Shown here one piece after another: positions 31,330-47,775 of a DNA stretch of 47,775 nt (position 1 is its first letter; each line of letters begins with the position of its first letter). The notes below the pieces were generated by a model. The model ran no database searches, was not told the origin of the DNA, and saw nothing but the letters and a program-made list of their open reading frames with translations. The stretch lies in sequence record PZ445409.1; one strand, written 5' to 3'. A program made the position numbers and the translations under genes. This DNA comes from a phage.

Positions 31330-31333
31330 CACG

Positions 31334-34809: not shown

Positions 34810-34852
34810 AATATACCCGACACTAGGCCGGGCGTTTTAACAAAAAATGCTA
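34810..34852 (-). promoter_or_regulatory. phage promoter unit (element + TATATT)
   Basis: Minus strand TAGCATTTTTTGTTAAAAC + gcccggcctagtgtcggg + TATATT; inverted near-identical copy of 31592-31628. Confidence 0.6.
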
Positions 34853-35044
34853 TTCCATACGCTTTACCGTAACCAGTAATACACCATCATCATTGCATAA
34901 AACATGTTCAGTGGTGCTAAAAGCGCGCATATCTGAATAAAGTAGCGTAAGTAAAGCATGAATAAAATCCTCATGTGATATTGAATTTACGGCGCAGTGC
35001 TTCAAGATCTTGTCTATTAGCTTTTGCCTGGAACAATTCATCAT
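34850..35044 (-). CDS. hypothetical small ORF (alternative frame)
   Basis: 64-aa ORF whose TAG stop is the TAG of the conserved promoter element (as for several other genes); overlaps 3-prime end of 34971-35366 by 74 nt in another frame. Confidence 0.25.
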   Translation of the reverse strand: MMNCSRQKLIDKILKHCAVNSISHEDFIHALLTLLYSDMRAFSTTEHVLCNDDGVLLVTVKRME

Positions 35045-35366
35045 CGCCCATCTCCCCTATTCTCGCCATATCCCTGATCCAGTCGTTGCGCATACCATCC
35101 AGGCTATACAATTCGAATCCGAAAGGCCGCTTTGACGATCCTTTGGACCAGTATTTTCCGCAGACCCCATCTATATAACCAGCCGTCATCATTCTTGCGC
35201 AAAATTCCTTAGATGCAAGGCTGGCGAACATTCGCGGCGTAAGTCCGGCGGCCCGTGCGAGCCGCTCACATTCTCTATGCTGATAGATAAATTTGGCTAT
35301 GTGCTGCCTGTTAAACCAGTCGTATGACTCACACCATTTATACAGATCAAGCAAAAACATAATCAT
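34971..35366 (-). CDS. hypothetical protein
   Basis: 131-aa ORF; ATG overlaps stop of upstream ATPase gene (ATGA), indicating translational coupling. Confidence 0.5.
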   Translation of the reverse strand: MIMFLLDLYKWCESYDWFNRQHIAKFIYQHRECERLARAAGLTPRMFASLASKEFCARMMTAGYIDGVCGKYWSKGSSKRPFGFELYSLDGMRNDWIRDMARIGEMGDDELFQAKANRQDLEALRRKFNIT

Positions 35367-36946
35367 CCCAGCAGTATTGGATTGACAAAAATAACACCAT
35401 TAATCACACAAACATAATTTCTTTCTTCCAGCATTGGCAGCAAGTGCCCTTCTATCCTCTTCATTACGCCAGCCTGACCAACGAAAGGTTTTACCTTTCT
35501 CGCTGATTCGTACAGGGCGCGAATATTCAGGATCCCTTTGTTAGCCTTGCCGTGTCTAGTGATCAATTCAATCAATTTACCCATTTCAGCATCATCACCA
35601 GCATAACCAGAAGCATTGGCGGCGCTAATGTATGTTTTGCTCAATTCCTGAAACATGATCAGCGCCTCTTGCATTGTTTCCACGTCGATCTCTTTCGACT
35701 TCTGCGGGTATCCGGCAGGATTAAACCAGTTGCGGATAACATGCAGGACGGAAGCAAGCCTGATCACCTGTTTATCCATTTTACCCAGCGCACCGCGTAA
35801 CATTGTATGAGAATACTTTCCGCCGTCTGCAAGATGCGGTTCCATATCCTGGCGAGCAATGTTGAGCACTCGCATAGCTGAACGGCTTATTTTCAGCGAT
35901 ATATTTGATTCGCTCATGATGTTATGCACCAATTGATAATATTGGGCCTTCAATTCAGGATCCACCGCCTCATAGGTAGAATCACCATTTTCATCAATGA
36001 ATGAGCGACGGCCTAAGAATGATTCCTCACGGACCAACAAAAAGCGCTCACTCACACCGATACCGCGCGATCCAGCGTCCATGATTCCGCTTATCGTTTC
36101 ATCCTGGGCTATAACGCTCATACATCCAAGCGCGCGAAAACTCATGTTATTGTCAGCATTAGCACGGGCAATTGATACGTGACCATTATCCCACGCCTTA
36201 AGCACTAGCTCGCTGTTAGTCTTCCTTTCGCTATTGGCATAGGTCAAGCCTAACAGGCTGTTAATACTTGTTGCTTCGTCAGATATTACGGCAAAGTTAC
36301 CTTGCTTGTTGTTGATTTTCGCCAAGCCTTCTGGAGTGGTATCTGAAACAGGGAAAGTTATATCACACATCTTTTCCAGCTTCTCCTCCAGATCCTCTTT
36401 TTCCTGGTATAGAGATTCCATATCAGCGCCTGATCTTTCGCTTTTCATCTCCTTTGCAAGACCTGCCAACTTTGCCTGTATTTTCTTTCTTTCCTTGCGG
36501 CGTTGCTCGTTGATCTTCTCAACTTCCGCAATCATCGGAGCAATAGCCATACTGTTGATCGCAGATTTACCAGTTGACGGCGGCTGGCTTGTAACTACGT
36601 AAAGCGCAGTCGGCTGATCTGTTCCGTGGTAGTCAACTGTGAATCGACCAAGCATAGCGGCAGAAATACATCCGATAAAGTGCATGTAGGCCGATGATTC
36701 AGGGAATTGAACAGATCTCGCAAGATTGCGCGCCAGCTTACCAACTACATCAACATCATTCCCAAGTGAAATAACAGGGTAGCGGTCGTTACCGCCGTTA
36801 ATATCTTCCACCTGGCCCCAATAGCTTGAAGATTGGCGGTATCCGTTGGCCTGAATGGATACACGAACAGGGGAAATACCTTGAGATTCGGCGGTTTCAA
36901 TGATTTGTTTCGGTGATAACTGACTTGTTTCAAATGAAAAATTCAT
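35363..36946 (-). CDS. P-loop NTPase (DUF3987/primase-helicase-associated-like)
   Basis: 527-aa ORF with AGGAG RBS; deviant Walker A (QPPSTGKS), central charged coiled-coil segment; driven by promoter unit 36974-37016. Confidence 0.5.
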   Translation of the reverse strand: MNFSFETSQLSPKQIIETAESQGISPVRVSIQANGYRQSSSYWGQVEDINGGNDRYPVISLGNDVDVVGKLARNLARSVQFPESSAYMHFIGCISAAMLGRFTVDYHGTDQPTALYVVTSQPPSTGKSAINSMAIAPMIAEVEKINEQRRKERKKIQAKLAGLAKEMKSERSGADMESLYQEKEDLEEKLEKMCDITFPVSDTTPEGLAKINNKQGNFAVISDEATSINSLLGLTYANSERKTNSELVLKAWDNGHVSIARANADNNMSFRALGCMSVIAQDETISGIMDAGSRGIGVSERFLLVREESFLGRRSFIDENGDSTYEAVDPELKAQYYQLVHNIMSESNISLKISRSAMRVLNIARQDMEPHLADGGKYSHTMLRGALGKMDKQVIRLASVLHVIRNWFNPAGYPQKSKEIDVETMQEALIMFQELSKTYISAANASGYAGDDAEMGKLIELITRHGKANKGILNIRALYESARKVKPFVGQAGVMKRIEGHLLPMLEERNYVCVINGVIFVNPILLG

Positions 36947-36973
36947 TAAATCGACTCCTATTTGGTGCGGTGT

Positions 36974-37016
36974 ATGTTACCGCACCAATACTACCCTTAT
37001 TTGTCAAAAAGTGCTA
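36974..37016 (-). promoter_or_regulatory. phage promoter unit (variant element + TAACAT)
   Basis: Minus strand TAGCACTTTTTGACAAATA + 18 nt + TAACAT; upstream of ATPase gene. Confidence 0.5.
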
Positions 37017-37025
37017 TTTGATCCG

Positions 37026-37235
37026 CTAGATTGCAACCAGTAGGCGATCTGGCTGGCGGTCGCTGTAGCATTCTCCGGTTACATCATCCTTAAAAGTGAA
37101 GTAAAGCGACTTGTGATATGAATACCCAATCAGCCAACCTTCCGCAGTTCTCTTTATTGGCCTGACAATATCGCCAGGCTTGAAAGTTGCAGTTGTGGCG
37201 TGAGTTACTTTATATCGGTATTCACTGCGGATCAT
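37026..37235 (-). CDS. hypothetical protein
   Basis: 69-aa ORF; ATGA overlap with upstream gene. Confidence 0.5.
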   Translation of the reverse strand: MIRSEYRYKVTHATTATFKPGDIVRPIKRTAEGWLIGYSYHKSLYFTFKDDVTGECYSDRQPDRLLVAI

Positions 37236-37618
37236 GAATATTTGGCCTCAAAAAGATAAGAGTAACCAGCAGAGAATCCGACCTCCTCGCGGTAGAGCGT
37301 CCATCGGTCGCCGTCCTCATCGAAGACGTAACCAGCAACTGATCCAAGAACGCGACCCTGTTCGACCTGGTAACGCTTTCCAGCTTTAAAACTTTTTTTG
37401 GTTTTCACCCGGTGATCAACAAACGTACATAGAATCGTCTTTGCCTTGATAGTGCGGTATTCGTCCTGGTTGGCTGATTCCCACTTCGCGCCCTTAGCCA
37501 GCGCCTTAACCTGAAATTCCTCCACCTCGATCACGTCGTCGCTGCCAGCTACTTTTGTGTAAACAGTTTTATAGCGACAGTTCATCAATTTGTTGTCGGA
37601 ATTGCGGATAACTTTCAT
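37232..37618 (-). CDS. hypothetical protein
   Basis: 128-aa ORF with GGAG RBS; first gene after promoter unit 37651-37693. Confidence 0.5.
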   Translation of the reverse strand: MKVIRNSDNKLMNCRYKTVYTKVAGSDDVIEVEEFQVKALAKGAKWESANQDEYRTIKAKTILCTFVDHRVKTKKSFKAGKRYQVEQGRVLGSVAGYVFDEDGDRWTLYREEVGFSAGYSYLFEAKYS

Positions 37619-37650
37619 TTGATTTTCTCCAGTTGTTTTCGTTGAAACGC

Positions 37651-37693
37651 ATTATGCCCGACTCAAGGTAGGGCGTTTTAACAAAAAGTGCTA
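37651..37693 (-). promoter_or_regulatory. phage promoter unit (element + CATAAT)
   Basis: Minus strand element starts with methyltransferase-like gene stop TAG; hexamer at 37656-37651. Confidence 0.6.
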
Positions 37694-38377
37694 TTTTGAG
37701 TTTGCCTCAAATACGGCGCGAGCAAATCCTCGCGGAGTGAGGGAGCGTAGTTGCTTTGTTCTGGCAGACTTACCTCCTAAAAACTTCCAACCCCAAAAGA
37801 ACATTACTCCCTCATCATTGCGTAACGGCTTGCGTTCCGGTTCGGTAAATCCGTTGCCGCACCAGATAGCCGTCCTTTTTGTGTAGCCATCCTTTAGCGG
37901 CATCTTGGGGTGAAAAGATCCATCGGATTCGTCCAGGTAGTTACCAAAATCGCGCGGATTGAAATAAAAATCAGGCTTGCGCCATAGCGTTGATAGTCGG
38001 CCTACAGGATTCTCAGCCATCCAGGGAACACCGAAATGATTCCCGACAGTTTCAACCATGATTGCATTTTTGAGCGCGATCTGAATATCATCATCGCTTC
38101 GCACGTGCTTGCTTCCTGATTGGGCAAACATGGTGCAGTCTGGAAATCCAAATACAATATCTGGTTTTGGAATATCCATCTTACTGATTCTTTCAATGAA
38201 ATTTTCATCAATCCACATATTAACATAATGCAGATTTTCATTCTTCATCTTGATGAAATATTCGCCGTGATTTCCCTCATCAGCGTTAAAGCAATAGCAT
38301 TGATAGCCAGCCTTCGCATATTCAAGCAGCATGATTCCAGATCCATCAAACATTGAGTAAGCAACTTTATTTCCCAT
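37691..38377 (-). CDS. DNA C5-cytosine methyltransferase-like protein lacking a target-recognition domain
   Basis: 228-aa ORF from ATG 38377 (track start 38437 is TTG); motif I SMFDGSG, motif IV-like DIVFGFPDC, motif VI-like MAENPVG, motif X-like RSLTPRGFARA; no region long enough for a TRD; TAG stop is first triplet of promoter element. Confidence 0.55.
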   Translation of the reverse strand: MGNKVAYSMFDGSGIMLLEYAKAGYQCYCFNADEGNHGEYFIKMKNENLHYVNMWIDENFIERISKMDIPKPDIVFGFPDCTMFAQSGSKHVRSDDDIQIALKNAIMVETVGNHFGVPWMAENPVGRLSTLWRKPDFYFNPRDFGNYLDESDGSFHPKMPLKDGYTKRTAIWCGNGFTEPERKPLRNDEGVMFFWGWKFLGGKSARTKQLRSLTPRGFARAVFEANSK

Positions 38378-38894
38378 GATTTTTATGATACCCCAATTCA
38401 TTCTCGGCTTTACGTTTTGCGGCAACAGCATCCCCAAAACTGGAGAAACAACCTATATAAATCCTACTTCCTCGCTTTCCGCTTCCAACCCTTACAACCC
38501 ATTTGCCATGTTTATTTTTATGCACACCTGGTATGCCACTTGTATTGTTTTTCTGCTTTGATGTGTTTCGCATATTTCCTTTGTGATCTTTTAACTCAAA
38601 GTTTATTGCTCTGTTATCAGTCGTAATGTGATTTAAGTGATCAACCTCCATTCCTTCCGGTATAGGCCCATAGTGCATTTCATAGCATATTCTATGAACT
38701 TTCAGGTTGTAACGTTTTCCGTTTACAGTAAGTGCGGTTTCTAAATATCTGCCACCACTACCCAAAGAGCCAACCTCATTACCAGCATTGCAAGCATTCC
38801 ATTGTTTAACTCTTGATTGGTGAATATCTTTTCTTTCTTTCCAGAACAGCTTTCCAGTTTCTGGATTGTATGTAAAGTAATCGTGCCAATTCAT
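38367..38894 (-). CDS. HNH homing endonuclease with AP2-like DNA-binding domain
   Basis: 175-aa ORF with GAGGTGA RBS; HNH motif EVDHLNHITTDNRAIN; C-terminal GVHKNKHGKWVVRVGSGKRGSRIYIGCFSSF AP2-type fold signature; 3-prime end overlaps start of methyltransferase-like gene. Confidence 0.7.
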   Translation of the reverse strand: MNWHDYFTYNPETGKLFWKERKDIHQSRVKQWNACNAGNEVGSLGSGGRYLETALTVNGKRYNLKVHRICYEMHYGPIPEGMEVDHLNHITTDNRAINFELKDHKGNMRNTSKQKNNTSGIPGVHKNKHGKWVVRVGSGKRGSRIYIGCFSSFGDAVAAKRKAENELGYHKNHGK

Positions 38895-38902
38895 TCATCA
38901 CC

Positions 38903-39127
38903 TCAAAACGGAAAACAGCGAGGACAGCTAGGATCGAAATCGCATCCACAATCATTAACAATCATAGTTGGATCTGCAAATATTGCGCTTGATTCAAGAT
39001 TCATATCCATATCACCTAGCGCCTCATCAAGAGTCTTAATTTTATATGCCACTTCAAGCGCCGCCTCTTTATTTAGTCCAGCATCTTCTGCCATTTGAAG
39101 TCGCTCAAAAAAACCGTCTTGACTCAT
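38903..39127 (-). CDS. hypothetical acidic protein with C-terminal Cys cluster
   Basis: 74-aa ORF; ATG overlaps stop of upstream small membrane ORF; ends CGCDFDPSCPRCFPF. Confidence 0.5.
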   Translation of the reverse strand: MSQDGFFERLQMAEDAGLNKEAALEVAYKIKTLDEALGDMDMNLESSAIFADPTMIVNDCGCDFDPSCPRCFPF

Positions 39128-39240
39128 CGCATAATCCCCTTAATAACAGCCAAGATAATAGCCAGGCCAGCAGCAGTAACCAAAAATCCAACCGCGCCAA
39201 TAATCGAATAAAAAAAGAAATCAATAGCTTTATCTATCAT
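39124..39240 (-). CDS. small membrane protein (38 aa, not in ORF track)
   Basis: ATG 39240 with GAGGTGG RBS right after a minus-strand terminator; single hydrophobic helix; TGA overlaps next ATG. Confidence 0.4.
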   Translation of the reverse strand: MIDKAIDFFFYSIIGAVGFLVTAAGLAIILAVIKGIMR

Positions 39241-39282
39241 TTTCCACCTCATTTAAAAGGCGGCAAAACGCCGCCAGATTAA

Positions 39283-39510
39283 TTAAAGAGCGCGCCAACT
39301 TTGAATATAGAAATCGTTTTCTTCCAGTAATTCTTTTACCTGATCTTTATTGTATTTGCGCACCTTGCCGCCTGGATGGATACCAATAAGATAGCCGCCT
39401 TTGCCCTCGGTGATAGTGATTTGGCTAATTCCGCAGGACTTATCAAGTTTTACAGCCACGCGGTGATGAGCGTCAATAGTTGCCATAATGTTTAAAACTT
39501 TTGCTTTCAT
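39283..39510 (-). CDS. hypothetical protein
   Basis: 75-aa ORF with GAGGA RBS. Confidence 0.5.
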   Translation of the reverse strand: MKAKVLNIMATIDAHHRVAVKLDKSCGISQITITEGKGGYLIGIHPGGKVRKYNKDQVKELLEENDFYIQSWRAL

Positions 39511-39618
39511 TTAAATATCCTCAATTGAAATATGAATGACGTGGTGCTCTTTTTCCGTCGCCGCCGTAATGGTCATTTGCAACCGCCACCATCCAAGCGT
39601 TTTTGAAAATAAATAGCC

Positions 39619-39831
39619 TCATTTCTTATTTTTCAGCTTAAATTTATGACCTGGAAGACCAGCGCCAATATACCCATCGTTGTATTCCATCAAATAAAGG
39701 TGAATACCATTATCTGAAATTACATGAGGATCTTCTTTGAGATTTCCCATTAGTGGATATTCTTTTTCGCGCGTAAATTTCCAAATTGAGTTATAAGTTT
39801 CTACGCATTTAAGTTTTAATTGCTTTGCCAT
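39619..39831 (-). CDS. hypothetical protein
   Basis: 70-aa ORF; TAATG overlap with upstream gene. Confidence 0.5.
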   Translation of the reverse strand: MAKQLKLKCVETYNSIWKFTREKEYPLMGNLKEDPHVISDNGIHLYLMEYNDGYIGAGLPGHKFKLKNKK

Positions 39832-40028
39832 TAGATGATCTCCATGTATGTTTCAAAGCCATTTAACTTGAACAGGCCGTTTTCACACTTGCGCACGTTC
39901 CAGGTTAGGCCGGAGTGGTACGCTTCCATATCTTCAAGGTCAATGGTGATTTCAGCACCTTTCTTAAACAGACCTTTCTCATGAGACTTGTCGCGCTTGA
40001 TAACCTTAACGTCAACCTGCGTTTCCAT
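39831..40028 (-). CDS. hypothetical protein
   Basis: 65-aa ORF from ATG 40028 with GAGGA RBS 7 nt upstream (track start 40034 is TTG); first gene after promoter unit 40060-40102. Confidence 0.5.
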   Translation of the reverse strand: METQVDVKVIKRDKSHEKGLFKKGAEITIDLEDMEAYHSGLTWNVRKCENGLFKLNGFETYMEII

Positions 40029-40059
40029 TTTCAATTCCTCGTTCGTTGTCGATGCGTGT

Positions 40060-40102
40060 AATGTACAGGAATGCGAGGATTGAGTTTTAACAAAAAGTGC
40101 TA
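40060..40102 (-). promoter_or_regulatory. phage promoter unit (element + TACATT)
   Basis: Minus strand element 1 nt after TAA stop; hexamer followed by conserved ACACGCATC leader. Confidence 0.6.
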
Positions 40103-40103
40103 T

Positions 40104-40370
40104 TTAGTCCAGGAATTCGATTTCACGCTCTCCAGTTAACGGATCTACAAGCCAGAAGCCGAGCGCCTCACCGTAAACACCGCCATAGAATCCAAGCGCC
40201 GCCAGATCTTCACCTTTAACGAATGCCAGGTTTCCGCTGCGGCTTACGTGAGACACGTTAACGATAACCGGAAAGGTGCGATCCTTAAATGCAGGCATCA
40301 GGGCGTAACATCCTTTATTGAGCAAACGTGCTTTGCGCTTTACTGGAATAGGTGCATTGATACGTGCCAT
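40104..40370 (-). CDS. hypothetical protein
   Basis: 88-aa ORF with GGAGA RBS; ATGA overlap with upstream gene; stop directly followed by promoter element. Confidence 0.5.
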   Translation of the reverse strand: MARINAPIPVKRKARLLNKGCYALMPAFKDRTFPVIVNVSHVSRSGNLAFVKGEDLAALGFYGGVYGEALGFWLVDPLTGEREIEFLD

Positions 40371-40582
40371 CAGTTGATTCTCCCATACAGATCACAGACT
40401 TCGTTGATAAAATTGCTTTGCGCCCCTTTGTTGTCACGCTCAAGAATTGCGCGGCATTCAAACTTATGATTATGCACGATGACTACAACCATGTTTTCAG
40501 GCATTGAGCGGTTATAGCGTTGCGCATCACTGATTGAAACATCCATACCCATCTCACGGGCTTTCTTGATCACATCCAACAT
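40370..40582 (-). CDS. hypothetical protein (paralog of 40570-40836)
   Basis: 70-aa ORF from ATG 40582 with AGGAG RBS; C-terminal ..NKGAQSNFINEVC resembles ..IKGRADFINDVC of the upstream gene. Confidence 0.5.
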   Translation of the reverse strand: MLDVIKKAREMGMDVSISDAQRYNRSMPENMVVVIVHNHKFECRAILERDNKGAQSNFINEVCDLYGRIN

Positions 40583-40836
40583 TTTTTCTTCTCCTGCAAT
40601 AAGCAAACATCATTGATAAAATCAGCGCGGCCTTTAATGTTGCTGATGTGGAAAGTCTTTTCAGCGTACAGGCCATCACCTTCAATCACGATCATTACGC
40701 GAGTCGGTTTATTCACGGGCGCACATGAAAAGAGTGGGCGCACCGGAAGAAATTTAGTAGTCACATCCAGGTTATCCCTGGCCGCCCTGCAAAATGCCTC
40801 CGCCAGATCTAAATCATTTTCGGTAATCACCGCCAT
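40570..40836 (-). CDS. hypothetical protein (paralog of 40370-40582)
   Basis: 88-aa ORF; TAATG overlap with upstream gene. Confidence 0.5.
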   Translation of the reverse strand: MAVITENDLDLAEAFCRAARDNLDVTTKFLPVRPLFSCAPVNKPTRVMIVIEGDGLYAEKTFHISNIKGRADFINDVCLLQEKKKCWM

Positions 40837-41108
40837 TACTTCTTGATCTCCTCACTGATAAATTTCAGCACCCGGCGCAAGAAAACTTCGTTGTTGATAG
40901 TCGCTGGCAATTCTTCTTTCACCTCTTGCGGCAGATAGATATTGCCGTGCCAGGTCAAGCAATCGTAGTTGATACGATAAGAGCAAAGCCACTCGCAATC
41001 GTTATCTGCTTCCCAAATGCAGAGTTGCAGAACATCTCCTAAGTTCTCAACAGTCAGATCCAGACCGTGACGCTTAGCGAAATTGAAAGTGGTTTTGCTG
41101 ATGTTCAT
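40836..41108 (-). CDS. hypothetical protein (first gene of leftward operon)
   Basis: 90-aa ORF with AGGAG RBS, 30 nt after promoter hexamer at 41144-41149. Confidence 0.5.
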   Translation of the reverse strand: MNISKTTFNFAKRHGLDLTVENLGDVLQLCIWEADNDCEWLCSYRINYDCLTWHGNIYLPQEVKEELPATINNEVFLRRVLKFISEEIKK

Positions 41109-41143
41109 TTGCTATCTCCTGAGCGGTTTGTTTTGATGTGTGT

Positions 41144-41186
41144 AATGTACCCGATCAGGTGGCCTGAGTTTTAACAAAAAGTGCGA
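41144..41186 (-). promoter_or_regulatory. phage promoter unit (variant element + TACATT), first leftward promoter
   Basis: Minus strand TCGCACTTTTTGTTAAAAC + 18 nt + TACATT + ACACACATC leader; AGGAG RBS; ATG 41108. Confidence 0.6.
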
Positions 41187-41218
41187 TTTGACGGTTAGCG
41201 CCAGGATTGTGATAGAAA

Positions 41219-41306
41219 TAATCAAAAGTAATCATTCGTAATCAAATCACGTCAAAATGATGATTGCCTTTGCAAATTTGATGAGAAAAGTAATCACGTT
41301 TAATCA
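41219..41306. repeat. 10-bp-phased GTAATCA/TAATCA iteron-like repeats
   Basis: TAATCA at 41219, 41229, 41239 and at 41291, 41301 (exact 10-bp spacing within each set); partial inverted copy TGATTG at 41261. Confidence 0.5.
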
Positions 41307-41726
41307 TTGGTTGCAGTGGAGATAGTGAAACCTTCCCCTCTTGCCTCACTTTTCCGCCTGGCTGTCAGTGGTTGTTATGTTCCGTTTTCGCCTGTTCTTT
41401 TGTTGACCTTCCGCAAAATACGATAACAAAAAATAACAAACAATACCTATATAATACATTGAAAAATAAGGATTATTTATTTATATGTATCTATATATTC
41501 TCTTTTGTTATCTTGGTTATTGTGGTATTTGGTGGGGGTATATAGTTTTTGTGTATCTATATGTGTGTATGGGTATGTAGGGGCATATATATCTATATGG
41601 CACTTTCCGCGATAAAACTTCGATAACAAGCAATGATAACATTGATTTATAAGGAAAAATAACGCCCATATTGTTATTGTGCCACCATATAAAATTGATA
41701 AAACACGCGGGAACAAGAAAAAACAG
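41307..41726. repeat. AT-rich regulatory region B, paralogous to region A
   Basis: TTCCGC..CGATAAC at 41409-41427 and 41605-41627; GTATCTATAT blocks at 41487, 41553, 41589; T/G-rich core 41499-41545; GGGAACAAGAAAAA at 41709-41722. Confidence 0.5.
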
Positions 41727-41755
41727 TTGACACATTAAATAGCATTATTGATAAT
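41727..41755 (+). promoter_or_regulatory. near-consensus sigma70 promoter (TTGACA-17-GATAAT with TG) for rightward operon
   Basis: -35 at 41727-41732, extended -10 TGATAAT at 41749-41755; preceded by GGGAACAAGAAAAA element. Confidence 0.6.
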
Positions 41756-41783
41756 GCCCACACCTAACAACCAGGAGGTAGAA

Positions 41784-42248
41784 ATGAGCGAGCAATCATT
41801 CACTGACACGCTGCGCCGTGCCGCTATTATGCTTGCCAATGGCGAGGAAGAGACGATCAAGATTCCTGACGCGTATTTGCAGGTCCACATGTTCGGCAAG
41901 AAGTCGGCAAGCAATCCGGCGGCCTACATTCGCCAGATCATGAGTCGAGTGCCAGAAGTCGCCGAGCGGGGGCGTGTATCCGTTACACGTGGCGTTTACG
42001 GGCCGGAAGATGAAAACTTCGGTAGCACTTTCTACGAGGTGCGGATTGTTGAAGGCCGTCGCAAGGTTTACAACAAAGAGGCACTGGAAAGGGCAGTGCG
42101 CCAGGCTAAGCGCAAGGTTGCAGAGGCGATCATTGATATGTCACCAAACCTGGCAAACTATGCGCCGGAAGAGTATGAAACATTATCAAAGGCCGTCGCT
42201 GACTTTCACGCGATGATCAAAAAAACTTTCCTGGAGGATGAGCAATGA
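41784..42248 (+). CDS. hypothetical protein (first gene of rightward operon)
   Basis: 154-aa ORF from ATG 41784 with AGGAGG RBS, downstream of near-consensus sigma70 promoter 41727-41755. Confidence 0.55.
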   Translation: MSEQSFTDTLRRAAIMLANGEEETIKIPDAYLQVHMFGKKSASNPAAYIRQIMSRVPEVAERGRVSVTRGVYGPEDENFGSTFYEVRIVEGRRKVYNKEALERAVRQAKRKVAEAIIDMSPNLANYAPEEYETLSKAVADFHAMIKKTFLEDEQ

Positions 42249-42505
42249 AAAAGGCATTAATCGGCGTTTTGGTGGCAATGACACTCCTGACCGGATGCGA
42301 AAAGGCATCAGAATCAACGGTTGTCGTAGGCGTGGAGTCAGATTTCAAAGTCGGTCGCCTGTTCACTGTTGACGGATGCACAGCATACAGATTCTATGAT
42401 AACGGTCGCGCGATCTATTACACCAGTTGCAAAGGCGCAACGGATAGCACGTACAACAGCGGAAAGAACGTAATGCACCAGCAAGTCACAACAGATATTA
42501 AATAG
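42245..42505 (+). CDS. putative lipoprotein
   Basis: 86-aa ORF, ATGA overlap; signal peptide with lipobox LLTGC; small Cys-containing mature domain. Confidence 0.6.
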   Translation: MKKALIGVLVAMTLLTGCEKASESTVVVGVESDFKVGRLFTVDGCTAYRFYDNGRAIYYTSCKGATDSTYNSGKNVMHQQVTTDIK

Positions 42506-42545
42506 CACTTTTTGCAAAAACAGATTGTCGGGCTTGCGGTATAGT
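42503..42545 (+). promoter_or_regulatory. phage promoter unit (variant element + TATAGT)
   Basis: TAGCACTTTTTGCAAAAAC begins with lipoprotein stop TAG; hexamer 42540-42545. Confidence 0.55.
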
Positions 42546-42576
42546 AAGCCCATCAACAACAAACGAGGATTAAATC

Positions 42577-42840
42577 ATGGCTAACAAGATCGAATTTTTT
42601 AAAGCGGTAGACATTATTGATGGCGCGCCTAGCTTCTTTGCCATCCATTCTATTGACGGCAAGGATATTGGGTACAACGTTATCCGTCGAGATGGAATCT
42701 CAAAACTTAGTGACCTGGTAGGTCATGTTGTGGCAAACGGGAAATGTGCATGGCCCGATTCGCCACGAGAGCCACGCCGCCGCGACATGGTAGAGCCTGT
42801 TCTGCTTTACACGCTGGTAGTAGAAGGAGAAAATAAATGA
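42577..42840 (+). CDS. hypothetical protein
   Basis: 87-aa ORF with GAGGA RBS after promoter unit 42503-42545. Confidence 0.5.
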   Translation: MANKIEFFKAVDIIDGAPSFFAIHSIDGKDIGYNVIRRDGISKLSDLVGHVVANGKCAWPDSPREPRRRDMVEPVLLYTLVVEGENK

Positions 42841-43022
42841 TTTGGTTACTTGCTTTTTTGGTTGTTTTTCTTTACATTTCAGGCTTGTTTACGTTCCGCG
42901 CGTTGGTGAAATATTCTTACACGACAGACAAAGACGATAAAATCGTTCTCGCTTTCTGGTTTGTTTGGGTGTGGTTAGCAATTTACGAGATCATCAGAGA
43001 CAAACAGAAATTTGAGTGGTGA
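42837..43022 (+). CDS. small membrane protein
   Basis: 61-aa ORF, ATGA overlap; two hydrophobic helices. Confidence 0.5.
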   Translation: MIWLLAFLVVFLYISGLFTFRALVKYSYTTDKDDKIVLAFWFVWVWLAIYEIIRDKQKFEW

Positions 43023-43081
43023 TTCTTGCTATGGCGCATTCATGCAGTGCGCCATGTTGAGAAAACCTAAAGGGGGAAATG

Positions 43082-43213
43082 ATGCGTAACTTTGAAAAAA
43101 TCATTACCAAAAAGAAGCGTCGCGGGTACGATGAGCATGTGGAGCTTGTGAAAAAGCAACGCAAGAAGCGCGGGAAAAAATTTAATGCGATTTTTCGCTA
43201 TGGAGATCATTAA
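43082..43213 (+). CDS. hypothetical small basic protein (not in ORF track)
   Basis: 43-aa Lys/Arg-rich ORF with AAGGGGG RBS; translated by hand. Confidence 0.35.
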   Translation: MRNFEKIITKKKRRGYDEHVELVKKQRKKRGKKFNAIFRYGDH

Positions 43214-43215
43214 TC

Positions 43216-43806
43216 ATGAAACGAGACATTATCATCCTTAATGGGCCGCCAGGTTGCGGGAAGGACACTATTGCAGCTTACCTAACGGGCCATCGTTACC
43301 CTGCTGTCAAGGCGTCATTCAAACAGCCGATGTTCGATATTGCTTTTTCTATGCTGGGCGTGTACCGATACGATGAATTTATGGACCTGTACAACGACCG
43401 AGAGCAAAAAGAAAAGCCTCAAGTTATCTTAGGCGGCAAGTCACCTCGACAATTCATGATCTGGATTAGCGAGGATGTAATGAAGCCAGTTTTTGGGGAT
43501 CACTATTTCGGGCGTCGAATGGTTGAAGAGATTCACGAGATGTACCGAGATTTGGCGGTTGTGATCAGTGATGGCGGATTCCCCGAAGAAATCAAGCCGC
43601 TGGTTAAGGCAGGGCATGAAGTGCATATTTGCCGATTGCATCGCGACGGCTTCACGTTTGCTGGCGATTCGAGAGACTACATTGACCTGAGCGGTTATCA
43701 CTATCGAATCCATCACTATGATTTCCACTTGCAGGACGGTAAGCCGGAGCTGGCTGTAAGCGAGATCGTCAATGCAGTCAAATGGAAGCACACACAGATT
43801 AAATAG
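43216..43806 (+). CDS. P-loop kinase, deoxynucleoside monophosphate kinase-like
   Basis: 196-aa ORF; N-terminal ILNGPPGCGKDT P-loop as in phage dNMP kinases; TAG stop is first triplet of promoter element 43804-43846. Confidence 0.5.
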   Translation: MKRDIIILNGPPGCGKDTIAAYLTGHRYPAVKASFKQPMFDIAFSMLGVYRYDEFMDLYNDREQKEKPQVILGGKSPRQFMIWISEDVMKPVFGDHYFGRRMVEEIHEMYRDLAVVISDGGFPEEIKPLVKAGHEVHICRLHRDGFTFAGDSRDYIDLSGYHYRIHHYDFHLQDGKPELAVSEIVNAVKWKHTQIK

Positions 43807-43846
43807 CACGAATTGCTAAACGCGGGGTTATCGGCCCCGCTATAAT
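43804..43846 (+). promoter_or_regulatory. phage promoter unit (variant element + TATAAT)
   Basis: TAGCACGAATTGCTAAAC begins with kinase stop TAG; hairpin gcggggttatcggccccgc; hexamer 43841-43846. Confidence 0.55.
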
Positions 43847-43876
43847 GCTCACATCAACAATCAAGAGGAAATCACA

Positions 43877-44257
43877 ATGGTTAACATCAGAAAAATTCGC
43901 GTCGGCACTAAATTCTTAGTTACTTACGCAATTCCAGATAGCGGAATGAAGAAGGGCCAGATTGTTAAGGTTGATAGCAAAAGGTTCGGAATCCCTGGTA
44001 TCAATGGCTATCTAATCAATAAAGATCTTGGATTCGACGGCTTCGCTATCCGTGCGCTTGAGGGTATTGTTGCAACTCTTAAACGAATTACTAATCATCG
44101 CGGCTGCCCAATCAAGACGATTAAAGCGCCAATAAATTACGGCAAACTGGATAATCGTCGAATCCGCCGCCTGGCGCGTAACGCGTTAAAATTCCGTGGC
44201 GTAGGCGATGATTTCTACTATGGATACAAGAGGATTGCGCGCAATGCTGGGAAATAA
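43877..44257 (+). CDS. hypothetical protein
   Basis: 126-aa basic ORF with AGAGGA RBS after promoter unit. Confidence 0.5.
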   Translation: MVNIRKIRVGTKFLVTYAIPDSGMKKGQIVKVDSKRFGIPGINGYLINKDLGFDGFAIRALEGIVATLKRITNHRGCPIKTIKAPINYGKLDNRRIRRLARNALKFRGVGDDFYYGYKRIARNAGK

Positions 44258-44356
44258 CAATAAAGCAACGAATCCTAAGCCACCTTTTGATTTTCATTCC
44301 GCAATGATTGCGGTATTATCAATGCTACTTTTTCTTTATAGCATGAGGGCGCTACT

Positions 44357-44620
44357 ATGGTTTTTAACGCATTGAAACGACTGTTTAAGCCGGAATACCG
44401 GATCGTTGCTTGCACAGAATGCAAGATTTATTATCTGCAACGCCGCCGCGTTATTAGTGGGGATTGGGAATATCTGACGGATGATGCTTTCGGCTTTTGG
44501 GCTATGGAGTTCAATAGCTACAGCGAAGCGCTCGAATACGCTAAAAAGTTGCACAAGTTCAGACCTTACAAGCTGCGTTTGCTGGTTGTCAAAAAGTGCG
44601 ACGTATGGGATCACGAATGA
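44357..44620 (+). CDS. hypothetical protein
   Basis: 87-aa ORF with GAGGG RBS; hairpin then TATTAT 38 nt upstream. Confidence 0.5.
   Translation: MVFNALKRLFKPEYRIVACTECKIYYLQRRRVISGDWEYLTDDAFGFWAMEFNSYSEALEYAKKLHKFRPYKLRLLVVKKCDVWDHE
44586..44601 (+). promoter_or_regulatory. inverted copy of conserved element 15 nt before ATG 44617
   Basis: TTGTCAAAAAGTGCGA lies inside the 3-prime end of ORF 44357-44620. Confidence 0.35.
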
Positions 44621-44793
44621 AAAGAGTAATTATCACCTTTATTGCCCTTATCGCTGGTTCCCACTTGGCATATGGGTATAGCGGCATTGTTGAGTCAATC
44701 GGCGGAATGATTATCTTCCTAGCTGGCGCATGTTACGGCTACGGCGATGGATTTAAAAACGGCAAGCGTTACATCCTGACCGGGAAGAAATAA
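44617..44793 (+). CDS. small membrane protein
   Basis: 58-aa ORF from ATG 44617 (ATGA overlap); two Gly-rich hydrophobic helices. Confidence 0.45.
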   Translation: MKRVIITFIALIAGSHLAYGYSGIVESIGGMIIFLAGACYGYGDGFKNGKRYILTGKK

Positions 44794-44835
44794 TGTTTAA
44801 TCGCGCCGCTTCGGTGGCGCTAAAAGGAGGAAAAA

Positions 44836-45123
44836 ATGGCTAAAAGCAATCGTAAGATGTTGATTAACGCATTCGAAAAGGCAGCGCTTGAGCGTGGCTG
44901 GAATGACTCATTTCACACGGCAAACTGTATCCGCCGTTACGGATTCAAGAGTTGTCGCTCATGGGCGCGAGAAATGGCTTCATGGTATGATCTTGATGCG
45001 CATTACCTTGATATGGATTGCGCCCTGGTTGAAATGATTGAGCAGGCAGCACTAGAGAATCGACCATTAACGCAATATGATTTTGACGATTTTGTGCGCG
45101 ATGAAATCTATTACATGAGCTAA
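44836..45123 (+). CDS. hypothetical protein
   Basis: 95-aa ORF with AAGGAGG RBS preceded by a UUCG-tetraloop hairpin (44803-44820). Confidence 0.5.
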   Translation: MAKSNRKMLINAFEKAALERGWNDSFHTANCIRRYGFKSCRSWAREMASWYDLDAHYLDMDCALVEMIEQAALENRPLTQYDFDDFVRDEIYYMS

Positions 45124-45166
45124 TAGCACTTTTTGTTAAAACTTCCGCAAGGGCATTTGGTAAAGT
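45124..45166 (+). promoter_or_regulatory. phage promoter unit (element + TAAAGT)
   Basis: TAGCACTTTTTGTTAAAAC directly after TAA stop; hexamer 45161-45166. Confidence 0.5.
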
Positions 45167-45198
45167 GCCCTTATTGAAGCGAAACAGAGGAAAGCGCA

Positions 45199-45411
45199 AT
45201 GAAAATTAAAATCACCAAAATCGACACCATCAACGGCGACGGATCAATCACTCTTGAGCAATGCGGTTTGGTTGTTGGTGATGTGCTGGAGGTTGACGGT
45301 CATTTCAGCGACGGATCTTATTGTGTTATTGCGCCGCGTAACAGCGAGTTTATCAAGGCTGGCGACAATATTAGTGTTAACCATGACGAATGCGAGGTAG
45401 TAGAAGAATGA
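45199..45411 (+). CDS. hypothetical small acidic protein
   Basis: 70-aa ORF, about 14 Asp/Glu vs 5 Lys/Arg; after promoter unit 45124-45166. Confidence 0.5.
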   Translation: MKIKITKIDTINGDGSITLEQCGLVVGDVLEVDGHFSDGSYCVIAPRNSEFIKAGDNISVNHDECEVVEE

Positions 45412-45671
45412 TCACGATTAACCTGTCAGAGCAGCAAGCGCGCGTTATGTTAGCGGCCTTTGGCTGGCGAGATGATGACGGCATCCAGGCAACTGTTAAA
45501 ATTCCTGAGACGGTAGCGCGTGAAGTTTTTAACCAGATTGAACACGCATTTGTTCCTGTTGGCACTGATCAGGCAGAAACAGCGGCTTGGTTCGGAGAGA
45601 ACGGATACAGAGATCAGCAAGTCGAAAACTGGAAGCGCATAAACGAGACTATGGAGGAATCAGGTTTATGA
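45408..45671 (+). CDS. hypothetical protein
   Basis: 87-aa ORF from ATG 45408 (ATGA overlap). Confidence 0.5.
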   Translation: MITINLSEQQARVMLAAFGWRDDDGIQATVKIPETVAREVFNQIEHAFVPVGTDQAETAAWFGENGYRDQQVENWKRINETMEESGL

Positions 45672-45982
45672 TTTACATTCACTACTACCAAATCGGAACT
45701 AACGAGAACAAAAAAGAGCATCGTTTCATCCACGATGATTTGGACAAGGCAAAGGCACAGCAACAGGTTTTAGGCGGCGTCATTCAGGCTTTTGAGCCTA
45801 TAGAAGATATTGAGTACCGCGAGCATTTAAAAGATGTTGTTATTGATGAGATCTCTTGCTTGATTGATGATATGACAAATCACGGCCCTGGTTCCACGTG
45901 GGAAGACGCAGGATCTGTAACGTGGGACAAGGCCAAAATTAAGACGCTAAACAACTTTCGAGAGATTCTCGACGGTTTTTAA
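45668..45982 (+). CDS. hypothetical protein
   Basis: 104-aa ORF from ATG 45668 (ATGA overlap). Confidence 0.5.
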   Translation: MIYIHYYQIGTNENKKEHRFIHDDLDKAKAQQQVLGGVIQAFEPIEDIEYREHLKDVVIDEISCLIDDMTNHGPGSTWEDAGSVTWDKAKIKTLNNFREILDGF

Positions 45983-46052
45983 TTAAAAACGCATAGCCGT
46001 TAGAGCGCCTCAATCGCATTCTAACGAGCTATTTTTCTGGTAAGGTGATTTA

Positions 46053-46181
46053 ATGGATGAGTACAAACAACCTTCGCAGTGGTGCAAAGAGAAGCAAGAA
46101 GAGGCGCTGGAGCGCGGAGATGTGGAAGAAGCTATGAACTATTTCAAACTTGCGGAAGAATGGAAGGGGAGAGGATACTGA
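46053..46181 (+). CDS. hypothetical small protein (42 aa, not in ORF track)
   Basis: ATG 46053 with AAGGTG RBS; stop TGA shares its A with next ATG. Confidence 0.35.
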   Translation: MDEYKQPSQWCKEKQEEALERGDVEEAMNYFKLAEEWKGRGY

Positions 46182-46411
46182 TGTTCGGCATGAATGAGGC
46201 GCAATTCAACGCAGCTAAACGCCAGGCTAAAAAGTGCGGCGAGGCGATGAAAGCTGATGTGGAAAAGCGCGGGAAGTATGTTGATGAAGTAATGAAGGGC
46301 ATCATTGCAGAACACTACCAGCCAATCGCGCCAATGTTGACGATCACTCAATTCATTTGGCTATGTGGTTACTTGCGTGGACGTTGGGGGAACGCTTTCG
46401 ACAGGGAATGA
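46181..46411 (+). CDS. hypothetical protein
   Basis: 76-aa ORF from ATG 46181 (in frame with track ORF 46079-46411). Confidence 0.45.
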   Translation: MFGMNEAQFNAAKRQAKKCGEAMKADVEKRGKYVDEVMKGIIAEHYQPIAPMLTITQFIWLCGYLRGRWGNAFDRE

Positions 46412-46440
46412 TTGACAACTCTTTCCTGATTGGTTAGCAT
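46412..46440 (+). promoter_or_regulatory. sigma70-like promoter (TTGACA-17-TAGCAT)
   Basis: -35 at 46412-46417, -10 at 46435-46440; followed by 130-nt structured leader. Confidence 0.5.
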
Positions 46441-46573
46441 GGCGTCGTTTACATAAGAGCGGCTTAGTCCGAACGCGTGACGCGATAGTCACACAACAAC
46501 GGCGATATGCAGGAGGTTTTTGCAATGCAAAATAATCCGTAAGACGTATCGCCTTTTTTAATGGAGATTCAAA

Positions 46574-46807
46574 ATGATCAAATACAAATTAACCGTTTCT
46601 TTCCGTGATACCGTTATTCATCCTTTCTACAATAGCTTTGTTAACAGCTTTACAGTAGAAGTTACAGAGGATCAGCTAGACGGTGACGAAACTTGCATTT
46701 CTATTGGAAATGTTGCTTACCCGATTCACAACATTACCAGCATTAAGCGTGAGGTTGTCGCTGATGAATTACAAAGTGAAGATGAAGATCCGGCGAATGG
46801 GGCGTAA
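46574..46807 (+). CDS. hypothetical acidic protein
   Basis: 77-aa ORF with GGAG RBS downstream of sigma70-like promoter and leader hairpin; acidic C-terminus. Confidence 0.5.
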   Translation: MIKYKLTVSFRDTVIHPFYNSFVNSFTVEVTEDQLDGDETCISIGNVAYPIHNITSIKREVVADELQSEDEDPANGA

Positions 46808-46949
46808 TTGCCAATCATGCAAACAGGAATATGAATGCGTAGTTGATGCTCTTGATGAACTGGAAGCAGTAGCAAAAGCAAAAGAGCAATCGGGCGCTAA
46901 TCCTGAAACACATCAATTTTCAATTAACCTTGTGAGGGCTTTACAATGA
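46764..46949 (+). CDS. hypothetical small protein (start uncertain)
   Basis: 61-aa ORF in frame with track ORF 46683-46949; GAGG RBS before ATG 46764; overlaps upstream gene; CxxC...C motif. Confidence 0.35.
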   Translation: MNYKVKMKIRRMGRNCQSCKQEYECVVDALDELEAVAKAKEQSGANPETHQFSINLVRALQ

Positions 46950-47170
46950 TCGCATTATCTTTCTGCATTGGTTTTATCATGGCTATCATTATCTTTTCCG
47001 TTGTCATGCGCTTTGCTTATAAGTTCGTTATTAATAAAGGCTGGTACGCTTCTGCAATCTGGAGCGAAAAACAAAAGAAATGGCTTGTACGTGGTCAATA
47101 CCTGATGATCGGAAGCAAGATCCTAAATTCCATTCGAGCCAAAGATGGAAAAGTAAAATATACAGCTTAA
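46946..47170 (+). CDS. small membrane protein
   Basis: 74-aa ORF, ATGA overlap; N-terminal hydrophobic helix; followed by terminator 47177-47199. Confidence 0.5.
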   Translation: MIALSFCIGFIMAIIIFSVVMRFAYKFVINKGWYASAIWSEKQKKWLVRGQYLMIGSKILNSIRAKDGKVKYTA

Positions 47171-47176
47171 AAATTA

Positions 47177-47199
47177 CCCGCCGCACGGCGGGTTTTTTA
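47177..47199 (+). terminator. intrinsic terminator before terS
   Basis: Hairpin cccgccgcacggcggg + TTTTTT. Confidence 0.65.
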
Positions 47200-47248
47200 T
47201 TGCCCGTTGTCTGGTATAATCAGGCATCTAACCAAAGGAGGATTAATA

Positions 47249-47775
47249 ATGGCTAAAAATGTTGAGCCTGCTGTAAAGGCATTAAATTTCAAAGAGTTAT
47301 ACAATAAAACTTATGGCGATATTGTCACGCTAAACAACCGCCACAAGTACACGCCGGAACAGGTTTTTGATATGGCGATCCGCTATTTCACTTGGGCCGA
47401 AGAGAATCACATCCAGGCGGCTGAAACTGCTTCCTTTCAGGGTGACGTGTACGAGAGCAGAGTTTACAAGCCTCGCGTTTTCACGGTAAACGGATTCAGC
47501 TTGTATCTCGGCGTTACTGAGGCGGCTGTAAGCAAGTGGCGTAAAGAGCCTGGATTCTGCGATGTGATGGAGTTTGTTGATAAAGTAATTTACGAGCAAA
47601 AATTCCAGCTTGCGGCAAATAACATGATTAACGCTGGATTTATCGGTAAAGAGATCGGAGTGGAGAAGCCAGCAACAGTGAGCGTTGAAGCGAGCGCGGC
47701 AGCTAATGCAAGCATTGACGCAGTAACTGCCGATGAGGTGAAAGAGGCTGTGATTGATATTCTGGAGCAACTTTA
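47249..47775 (+). CDS. terS: terminase small subunit (3-prime end completed by nt 1 of window)
   Basis: ATG 47249 with AAGGAGG RBS; open to window end (175 codons + TA); HTH-like FSLYLGVTEAAVSKWRK; final TA plus nt 1 gives TAA overlapping terL ATG. Confidence 0.7.
   Translation, partial: MAKNVEPAVKALNFKELYNKTYGDIVTLNNRHKYTPEQVFDMAIRYFTWAEENHIQAAETASFQGDVYESRVYKPRVFTVNGFSLYLGVTEAAVSKWRKEPGFCDVMEFVDKVIYEQKFQLAANNMINAGFIGKEIGVEKPATVSVEASAAANASIDAVTADEVKEAVIDILEQL

What the first reader, a model, noticed from the sequence alone, without database searches (positions are those of the whole stretch)
43216..43806. dNMP-kinase-like P-loop protein in the early operon of a phage that also encodes Dam and a C5-methyltransferase-like protein
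The N-terminus ILNGPPGCGKDT matches the GxxGxGKDT P-loop of phage deoxynucleoside monophosphate kinases (T4 gp1-type), which in T4 phosphorylate noncanonical dNMPs. With the Dam methyltransferase (30604-31329) and the TRD-less methyltransferase-like gene, this raises the possibility of nucleotide-pool remodelling or DNA modification used against host restriction.
Basis: partly seen in the sequence, partly recalled or inferred. Interest (0 to 1): 0.4.

Follow-up and report, generated by a model that had tools for sequence, protein, structure and literature searches.

The report
T1-type phage dNMP kinase gene
This is the ordinary, already annotated deoxynucleotide-monophosphate kinase of a T1-like coliphage, most likely used to recycle nucleotides from degraded host DNA, and nothing in the genome links it to unusual DNA modification.

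The parts
43216..43806 (+). Coding sequence of the 196-aa T1-type deoxynucleoside monophosphate kinase (orthologue of T1 gp62, TLS Gp14 and KarlJaspers bas06_0076)
43202..43205 (+). Shine-Dalgarno-like GGAG, 10 nt upstream of the ATG
   Evidence: Read directly from the sequence.
43243..43269 (+). P-loop GPPGCGKDT (residues 10-18). K16, D17 and T18 are equivalent to gp1 K14, D15 and T16.
   Evidence: G15, K16, D17 and T18 are invariant in 24 of 24 homologues.
43399..43473 (+). Helical dNMP-binding region containing R62 (equivalent to gp1 R68), R78 (R132), M81 (M135) and E86 (T140)
   Evidence: hhalign residue map and column composition. gp1 residue roles come from Table 2 of PMC10653934.
43570..43590 (+). 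DGGFPEE motif (residues 119-125). D119 and E125 are equivalent to the gp1 base-contact residues D175 and E181. G121 replaces gp1 R177.
   Evidence: DGGF occurs in 237 of 266 family members against 1 of 84 in the gp1 clade.
43663..43680 (+). Lid motif GDSRDY (residues 150-155) with invariant R153, the candidate replacement for the missing R177
   Evidence: D151, S152, R153 and Y155 are invariant. DSR occurs in 259 of 266 family members against 0 of 84 in the gp1 clade. The functional role is an inference.
41727..41755 (+). Best sigma-70-like promoter match (TTGACA-17-GATAAT, 11 of 12) at the head of the rightward block of small genes that contains the kinase
   Evidence: This is a consensus match only, and the number of such matches in the region is no higher than in shuffled sequence.

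Best explanation
The gene encodes a soluble P-loop deoxynucleoside-5'-monophosphate kinase (DNK) of the T1-type subfamily. It uses ATP to convert dNMPs to dNDPs, and host nucleoside-diphosphate kinase then makes dNTPs. T1-like phages have no DNA polymerase and no de novo nucleotide synthesis genes. They are reported to degrade the host chromosome and reuse its nucleotides, so the kinase most likely speeds re-entry of host-derived canonical dNMPs into the dNTP pool for phage replication.

Shown here: the ORF, its family, its fold, conservation of most gp1 dNMP- and ATP-binding residues, and 82% identity to a DNK with reported in vivo activity. Inferred: broad specificity for canonical dNMPs, the salvage role, early expression, and the idea that lid arginine R153 substitutes for the missing gp1 Arg177. 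A known side effect of such kinases is that they trigger the Kongming (KomABC) defence by helping make dITP.
For: Family: phrog_139 'deoxynucleoside monophosphate kinase', E 3.6e-51, over the same profile span that T4 gp1 matches at E 1.8e-65.

Profile homology: 97.5% probability and E 6.6e-12 against the gp1 clade, and 95.3% against T5 Dnk over the N-terminal part.

Residues (with gp1 roles from PMC10653934 Table 2): the equivalents of K14/D15/T16, R68, R132, M135, D175 and E181 are invariant or nearly so.

Context in other phages is nucleotide metabolism: thymidylate synthase and RNR in a Vequintavirus, dUTPase in a Chaseviridae phage.

Literature: TLS Gp14 and the KanT1 orthologue are annotated as dNMP kinase, and T1 and TLS are stated to degrade host DNA and reuse its nucleotides (PMC11447400 and PMC13164509). 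The Kongming preprint reports that the DNKs of KarlJaspers and Klebsiella phage VAC2 are toxic with KomABC. It also reports that Rao1 DNK phosphorylates dAMP, dGMP, dCMP and dTMP, and that its K15A mutant is inactive (10.1101/2024.12.20.629578). The window protein is 82% identical to the only P-loop candidate in KarlJaspers and 43% identical to the VAC2 protein.
Against: No enzyme assay exists for this exact protein, and substrate range is extrapolated. The protein does not match Pfam DNMK PF21448, even at E<=1. Three residues invariant in gp1 are not conserved: R11 corresponds to G13, K37 to F40, and R177 to an invariant G121. Specificity or mechanism could therefore differ from T4 and T5. 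I could not establish whether the biochemically assayed Rao1 DNK belongs to this subfamily. Equating 'the KarlJaspers DNK' with bas06_0076 is my inference from its being the only candidate in that genome. In Rao1, deleting dnk lowered dATP only modestly and had no fitness cost, so the salvage benefit may be small or conditional. In Weberviruses and some metagenomic contigs the domain is coupled or fused to a PNKP-type phosphatase, which salvage alone does not explain.
Confidence: 0.82

Rival explanations
1. It is the 5'-kinase half of a split polynucleotide kinase-phosphatase. Together with the HAD 3'-phosphatase that relatives encode, it would heal 5'-OH/3'-P breaks in DNA or RNA made by host nucleases, as T4 Pnkp does.
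For: Relatives encode a PNKP-type HAD phosphatase that has no kinase domain (PF25109). That phosphatase is translationally coupled to this gene in Weberviruses and fused N-terminally to this domain in P0138 and P0145, the same domain order as mammalian PNKP (my knowledge). In Chaseviridae the gene abuts a DNA ligase. Some GenBank records label the neighbourhood 'polynucleotide kinase'.
Confidence: 0.06
2. One reading: the kinase exists to phosphorylate a non-canonical dNMP, as T4 gp1 does for hydroxymethyl-dCMP, feeding a DNA hypermodification that protects the phage from restriction.
For: It is homologous to T4 gp1. The substrate-site residues differ from both T4 and T5 (G121, E86). The close relative FritzSarasin (kinase 96.4% identical) is unusually restriction-resistant for unknown reasons (PMC8594841).
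Against: No enzyme that could make a modified dNMP was found among the larger window ORFs scanned or in annotated relatives. Many small early ORFs remain unassigned. The two methyltransferases act on DNA after replication (established knowledge). The kinase is present across Drexlerviridae, most of which are reported as very sensitive to all RM types. The related DNK that was assayed acts on the canonical dNMPs.
Confidence: 0.03
3. It is a P-loop kinase for some other small molecule (for example phosphomevalonate-kinase-like), or a non-catalytic ATP-binding regulator.
Against: The gp1 match is the best and longest (172 residues). Profile homology to gp1 and T5 is significant. The conserved residues are those that bind a nucleotide phosphate, sugar and base in gp1. 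E. coli lacks a mevalonate pathway (established knowledge). The invariant catalytic K16, D17 and T18 and several invariant arginines argue against a non-catalytic role.
Confidence: 0.05

Closest known systems
DNKs of Drexlerviridae phages KarlJaspers (Bas06) and vB_KpnS-VAC2, reported triggers of the Kongming defence (bioRxiv 10.1101/2024.12.20.629578)
   Same: Same subfamily. The window protein is 82% identical to KarlJaspers bas06_0076 and 43% identical to the VAC2 protein, over full length. They share the GKDT, DGGF and DSR motifs, and the KarlJaspers gene sits in the same syntenic position.
   Different: The window phage lacks the HAD 'pnk' phosphatase that both of those phages carry. The window protein itself has not been tested.
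Bacteriophage T5 deoxynucleoside monophosphate kinase (Dnk, T5.043)
   Same: It has the GxxGxGKDT P-loop, an SF-x-KP helix start and an F-P-x-E motif after the conserved Asp (DVRFPNE against DGGFPEE). hhalign gives 95.3% probability over residues 2-71. T5 Dnk acts on the four canonical dNMPs in a phage with unmodified DNA (as cited in PMC10653934), which makes it the best functional analogy.
   Different: T5 Dnk is 250 aa, passes Pfam DNMK (43 bits), and keeps the Arg177-equivalent and the D-x-H-x-S-E lid. T5 also makes nucleotides de novo and carries the Dmp 5'-nucleotidase. This phage has neither in the window.
Bacteriophage T4 gp1 dNMP kinase (PDB 1DEK/1DEL; Pfam PF21448)
   Different: Identity is only 16%. 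The window protein is 45 residues shorter and gives no Pfam DNMK hit. R11, K37, R177 and T140 correspond to G, F, G and E. The lid motif is DSR rather than D-x-H-x-T-E. T4 gp1 serves a hydroxymethyl-dCMP pathway that has no counterpart here.
T4 polynucleotide kinase-phosphatase (PseT/Pnkp)
   Same: Both have a P-loop kinase fold of the adenylate-kinase class. Relatives of this phage carry a phosphatase of the PNKP HAD type next to, or fused with, the kinase.
   Different: PNK kinase domains are much weaker fold matches than gp1. The gp1-type dNMP-binding residues are conserved here. The phosphatase is a separate gene in relatives and is absent from this window.

Membership tests
Phage dNMP kinase superfamily (PHROG 139; T4 gp1 / T5 Dnk-like) | Significant match to the family profile over the kinase core | tested here: met
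   phrog_139 at E 3.6e-51, profile positions 81-261. T4 gp1 matches positions 83-261 at E 1.8e-65.
Phage dNMP kinase superfamily (PHROG 139; T4 gp1 / T5 Dnk-like) | Walker A with the unusual G-K-D-T ending | tested here: met
   GPPGCGKDT at residues 10-18. K, D and T are invariant in 24 of 24 homologues, and GKDT occurs in 236 of 266 family members.
Phage dNMP kinase superfamily (PHROG 139; T4 gp1 / T5 Dnk-like) | gp1-like two-domain fold (P-loop sheet plus helical dNMP-binding domain) | tested here: met
Phage dNMP kinase superfamily (PHROG 139; T4 gp1 / T5 Dnk-like) | Residues that bind the dNMP phosphate, sugar and base in 1DEK (R68, R132, M135, D175, E181) | tested here: met
   R62, R78, M81, D119 and E125 are invariant or at least 95% conserved. 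Residue roles come from PMC10653934 Table 2.
Phage dNMP kinase superfamily (PHROG 139; T4 gp1 / T5 Dnk-like) | ATP-dependent phosphorylation of dNMPs to dNDPs | not testable with these tools
   Indirect evidence only. An 82%-identical orthologue (KarlJaspers) and a 43%-identical one (VAC2) are reported to trigger Kongming, which requires DNK activity.
Pfam DNMK (PF21448; strict T4 gp1 / T5 Dnk clade) | Score above the Pfam gathering threshold | tested here: not met
   PF21448 does not appear even at E<=1. All 84 gp1 homologues carry it, and T5 Dnk scores 43.4 bits against a cutoff of 27.1.
Pfam DNMK (PF21448; strict T4 gp1 / T5 Dnk clade) | D-x-R-[QF]-x-x-E motif with the invariant Arg177 | tested here: not met
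   The window has DGGFPEE, and G121 is invariant. The motif occurs in 2 of 266 family members against 82 of 84 in the gp1 clade.
Pfam DNMK (PF21448; strict T4 gp1 / T5 Dnk clade) | Lid motif D-x-H-x-[ST]-E | tested here: not met
   0 of 266 family members have it, against 78 of 84 in the gp1 clade. The family has G-D-S-R instead, in 259 of 266.
Polynucleotide 5'-kinase / 3'-phosphatase (T4 Pnkp type) | Kinase domain structurally closest to PNK kinase domains | tested here: not met
Polynucleotide 5'-kinase / 3'-phosphatase (T4 Pnkp type) | Covalently or genetically linked 3'-phosphatase and a sealing ligase | tested here: not met
   There is no phosphatase homologue anywhere in the window (tblastn). 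No ligase is annotated in close relatives. The linkage does exist in other Drexlerviridae and in fusions.
T4-type nucleotide hypermodification pathway | An enzyme that produces a non-canonical dNMP for the kinase to act on (such as dCMP or dUMP hydroxymethylase, PurZ, or deazaguanine genes) | tested here: not met
   None was found among the window ORFs scanned with Pfam and PHROGs or in the annotation of near-identical genomes. Small hypothetical ORFs remain unassigned.

The most novel reading that the evidence does not exclude
The T1-type DNK subfamily may not be merely a salvage enzyme. Its rearranged substrate site (arginine moved from the D-x-R strand motif to the DSR lid, and Glu in place of gp1 Thr140) would give it a specificity that includes a non-canonical dNMP. 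In Warwickviruses such as FritzSarasin and this phage, that would feed an as yet undetected DNA modification and explain their unexplained resistance to restriction. A milder variant: the kinase, the PNKP-type phosphatase and, in some relatives, an SSB-like DDIPW tail form a replisome-docked dNMP-homeostasis module that also tunes exposure to Kongming-type immunity.
Probability: 0.04. Interest if true: 0.6.

Novelty: already known. Interest (0 to 1): 0.15.

Why it matters
As found, it matters little. It is a conserved and already annotated accessory gene of T1-like phages, and public records hold copies 99.5% identical. Its practical relevance comes from recent work showing that phage dNMP kinases trigger the Kongming abortive-infection system. 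A phage carrying this gene, and lacking any Dmp-like phosphatase, would therefore be predicted to be sensitive to Kongming-bearing hosts, which is useful when choosing therapeutic or laboratory phages. Two corrections to common annotation emerge. The T1-type kinase is a distinct subfamily that Pfam DNMK does not capture. The neighbouring 'polynucleotide kinase' of Drexlerviridae is only a phosphatase.

Tried and rejected
1. Pfam scan of the protein returned only sub-threshold P-loop matches.
2. PDB sequence searches with the single sequence and with a 24-sequence profile found only P-loop matches and did not find 1DEK. Fold and profile-profile methods were needed.
3. hhalign of the family profile against the single gp1 sequence linked only residues 4-78 at 85% probability. 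It improved to 97.5% over 141 columns once a gp1-clade profile was built.
4. I tested whether the relatives' 'polynucleotide kinase' supplies a true kinase. It does not: it is a HAD phosphatase only.
5. I tested whether that phosphatase is a homologue of T5 Dmp, the anti-Kongming 5'-nucleotidase. Only the generic HAD motif I aligns (pairwise E 0.018), and T5 Dmp has no Pfam hit. I rejected this as unsupported.
6. I looked at the genomic context of the phosphatase-kinase fusions for a ligase or nucleotide-metabolism genes. One contig was too short, and the other showed a Dam-family methylase and a PAPS-reductase-like gene but no ligase. This was uninformative.
7. I could not identify phage Rao1, whose DNK was assayed in vitro, from the text of two papers or among the 60 closest phage records.
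8. The promoter and terminator scan around the gene gave no more matches than shuffled sequence.

Full report
**Observation.** The ORF is real. An ATG at 43216 is preceded by GGAG at 43202-43205 and by the stop codon of a 44-codon upstream ORF. The frame runs 196 codons to TAG at 43804-43806. The protein is strongly conserved. It has 444 matches at E<=1e-3 in the 5.8-billion-protein collection. It has 3,965 cluster representatives in the exhaustive profile search, of which 2,894 are at E<=1e-10. Homologues occur in 1,462 phage records.

**What the window is.** Megablast places the window in the T1-like phages: Drexlerviridae, subfamily Tempevirinae, genus Warwickvirus. Identity is 95-97% to phages such as JLBYU26, tonijn, Sip and MikeNSara. 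The kinase gene is 99.5% identical at protein level to those of tonijn, Sip, NorthRox, Poky and B1.2. It is 96.4% identical to that of the BASEL phage FritzSarasin. Those records label it variously as 'hypothetical protein', 'ATP-binding protein', 'P-loop NTPase', 'dNMP kinase' or 'deoxynucleoside monophosphate kinase'. According to the Sin4 annotation, the orthologue in phage T1 is gp62. The TLS re-annotation paper calls the TLS orthologue (Gp14) a dNMP kinase, and the KanT1 paper does the same (PMC11447400 and PMC13164509).

**What the protein is.**
- Pfam gives only sub-threshold P-loop matches.
- PDB sequence searches, with the single sequence or with a profile, find only P-loops.
- PHROGs assigns the protein to phrog_139, 'deoxynucleoside monophosphate kinase', at E 3.6e-51. 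The authentic T4 gp1, taken from NC_000866, matches the same span of the same profile at E 1.8e-65.
- An AlphaFold2 model built on a 24-sequence alignment is confident (mean pLDDT 91, pTM 0.83).
- Foldseek against predicted viral structures returns mostly proteins annotated as dNMP kinases.
- A profile of the gp1 clade (17 sequences, all carrying Pfam PF21448) aligns to the family profile with 97.5% probability and E 6.6e-12 over 141 columns.
- T5 Dnk, taken from NC_005859, joins the gp1 clade at 99% probability and this family at 95.3% over the N-terminal 70 residues.

**Active-site comparison.** I used the functional residues of 1DEK tabulated in PMC10653934 and the hhalign register.

| gp1 residue (role in Table 2) | Equivalent in this family | Status |
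|---|---|---|
| K14, D15, T16 (ATP/phosphate binding) | K16, D17, T18 | conserved |
| R68, R132 (dNMP phosphate binding) | R62, R78 | conserved |
| M135 (dNMP sugar binding) | M81 | conserved |
| D175, E181 (base interactions) | D119, E125 | conserved |
| R11 (ATP/phosphate binding) | G13 | not conserved |
| K37 (dNMP phosphate binding) | F40 (the family has its own invariant K36) | not conserved |
| T140 (base interactions) | invariant E86 | not conserved |
| R177 (invariant in the gp1 clade) | invariant G121 | not conserved |

A motif census makes the split reciprocal.

| Motif | This family (266) | gp1 clade (84) |
|---|---|---|
| DGGF | 237 | 1 |
| DSR lid | 259 | 0 |
| D-x-R-[QFY]-x-x-E | 2 | 82 |
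| D-x-H-x-[ST]-E lid | 0 | 78 |

I infer, but cannot show, that lid arginine R153 takes over the role of gp1 R177. The protein is therefore a member of the dNMP-kinase superfamily, but of a distinct T1-type subfamily that Pfam DNMK does not capture.

**Functional evidence from the literature.** The Kongming preprint (10.1101/2024.12.20.629578) makes four relevant reports. First, phage DNKs trigger the KomABC defence by helping convert dAMP or dIMP into dITP. [quoted passage not shown] Third, the DNK of phage Rao1 phosphorylates dAMP, dGMP, dCMP and dTMP in vitro, and its P-loop K15A mutant is inactive. Fourth, deleting Rao1 dnk lowers dATP modestly without a fitness cost.

KarlJaspers is a Hanrivervirus of the same subfamily as the window phage. 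Its only P-loop candidate, bas06_0076, is syntenic with the window gene and 82% identical over full length. The VAC2 protein is 43% identical. Both keep the DGGF and DSR motifs. This is indirect but strong evidence that the subfamily is an active dNMP kinase. I could not determine whether Rao1's enzyme belongs to it.

**Most likely role.** T1-like phages lack a DNA polymerase (stated for T1 and TLS in PMC11447400). Neither my scans of the window nor the annotations of relatives show RNR, thymidylate synthase or dUTPase. T1 and TLS are reported to degrade the host chromosome and reuse its nucleotides. A dNMP kinase acting on canonical dNMPs fits this lifestyle, as T5 Dnk does. In larger phages the homologue sits among nucleotide-metabolism genes: thymidylate synthase and RNR in Vequintavirus JohannBauhin, and dUTPase in the Chaseviridae phage PYps3T.

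Dam is confirmed (PF05869, E 2.2e-58). A second methyltransferase-like gene lies at 37691-38437 on the minus strand. It matches phrog_757 but no Pfam family, and its orthologue is annotated as a Dcm-like C5 methyltransferase in KarlJaspers. Both act on DNA after replication and need no dedicated nucleotide kinase. No enzyme that could generate a non-canonical dNMP was found. [quoted passage not shown] It found no pattern linking methyltransferases or other genomic features to resistance (PMC8594841). Because the kinase is nearly universal in the family, it cannot be the basis of a general protective hypermodification. A small residual possibility remains: FritzSarasin, a close relative, is unusually restriction-resistant for unknown reasons.

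**The polynucleotide-kinase rival.** This deserved attention. The 'polynucleotide kinase' annotated about 1.5 kb upstream in relatives is only a PNKP-type HAD phosphatase with no P-loop. It is translationally coupled to the kinase in Weberviruses. It is also fused to the kinase domain in two metagenomic proteins. Against the rival are four points. The fold ranking favours gp1. The gp1-type dNMP ligands are conserved. The phosphatase is absent from this window, and no ligase is present. Finally, there are the Kongming data. The phosphatase is not detectably a homologue of T5 Dmp beyond the HAD motif. Why it is coupled to the kinase remains unexplained.

**Verdict.** The DNA-modification interpretation is not supported. 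Interest is low.

Noticed in passing
Homologues P0060, P0087, P0095, P0100, P0101, P0109 (phage JulesPiccard), P0111, P0112, P0116, P0118, P0119, P0120, P0126; not in the window copy: Thirteen of 266 family members carry an acidic C-terminal extension ending D-[DEG]-[IL]-P-W. From memory, this resembles the DDDIPF tip of E. coli SSB, so it could be a docking tail for SSB-binding replisome or repair proteins. The window protein ends WKHTQIK and lacks it.
   Followed up: partly
L001:1922-2632, L002:2292-3002, L003:3013-3501, L013:45960-46499; absent from the window: The gene annotated 'polynucleotide kinase' or 'kinase-phosphatase' (T1 gp64 type) across Drexlerviridae contains only a PNKP-type HAD phosphatase domain (PF25109) and no kinase P-loop. 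It is translationally coupled to the dNMP kinase in Weberviruses and fused N-terminally to it in P0138 and P0145. tblastn finds no copy in this window.
   Followed up: partly
window 41748-42505 (+): A DUF7174 protein (166 aa, PF23796, E 2e-28) and a small DUF4884-like protein (86 aa, below the Pfam cutoff) open the rightward operon. In this region several relatives carry other small ORFs and the HAD phosphatase, so the early region looks mosaic.
   Followed up: no
window 43821-43846 (+): A GC-rich hairpin (predicted -14.2 kcal/mol) follows the kinase stop codon. It has no T-run and directly abuts a perfect TATAAT hexamer. The consensus terminator and promoter scan did not flag it.
   Followed up: no
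window 37691-38437 (-): A 248-aa protein matches phrog_757 'DNA methyltransferase' (E 9.7e-78) but no Pfam family at E<=0.01. Its KarlJaspers orthologue is annotated as a Dcm-like C5 cytosine methyltransferase. It is immediately downstream of, and overlaps, an HNH endonuclease gene at 38367-38894 (-).
   Followed up: partly
Phage collection hits to window 42000-45000 and 28000-47775: Twenty records named 'Campylobacter phage' (one listed is 35 kb, host Campylobacter jejuni) match this E. coli T1-like sequence by megablast and carry the kinase. They may be contaminant or mis-assigned assemblies.
   Followed up: no
L004:2736-3260 (Yersinia phage PYps3T ORF050): A gene annotated 'deoxynucleoside monophosphate kinase' in this Chaseviridae record instead matches a PHROG labelled HNH endonuclease (phrog_1985, E 5.5e-58). 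The true family member is ORF052, so this is probably a mis-annotation.
   Followed up: partly
BFVD hits A0A7S6HV70 (Escherichia phage JEP1, 518 aa) and A0A6J5RPH7 (297 aa): One structural neighbour of the kinase is annotated as containing a DOD-type homing endonuclease domain. Another is annotated as nucleoside 2-deoxyribosyltransferase, which may indicate a fusion.
   Followed up: no
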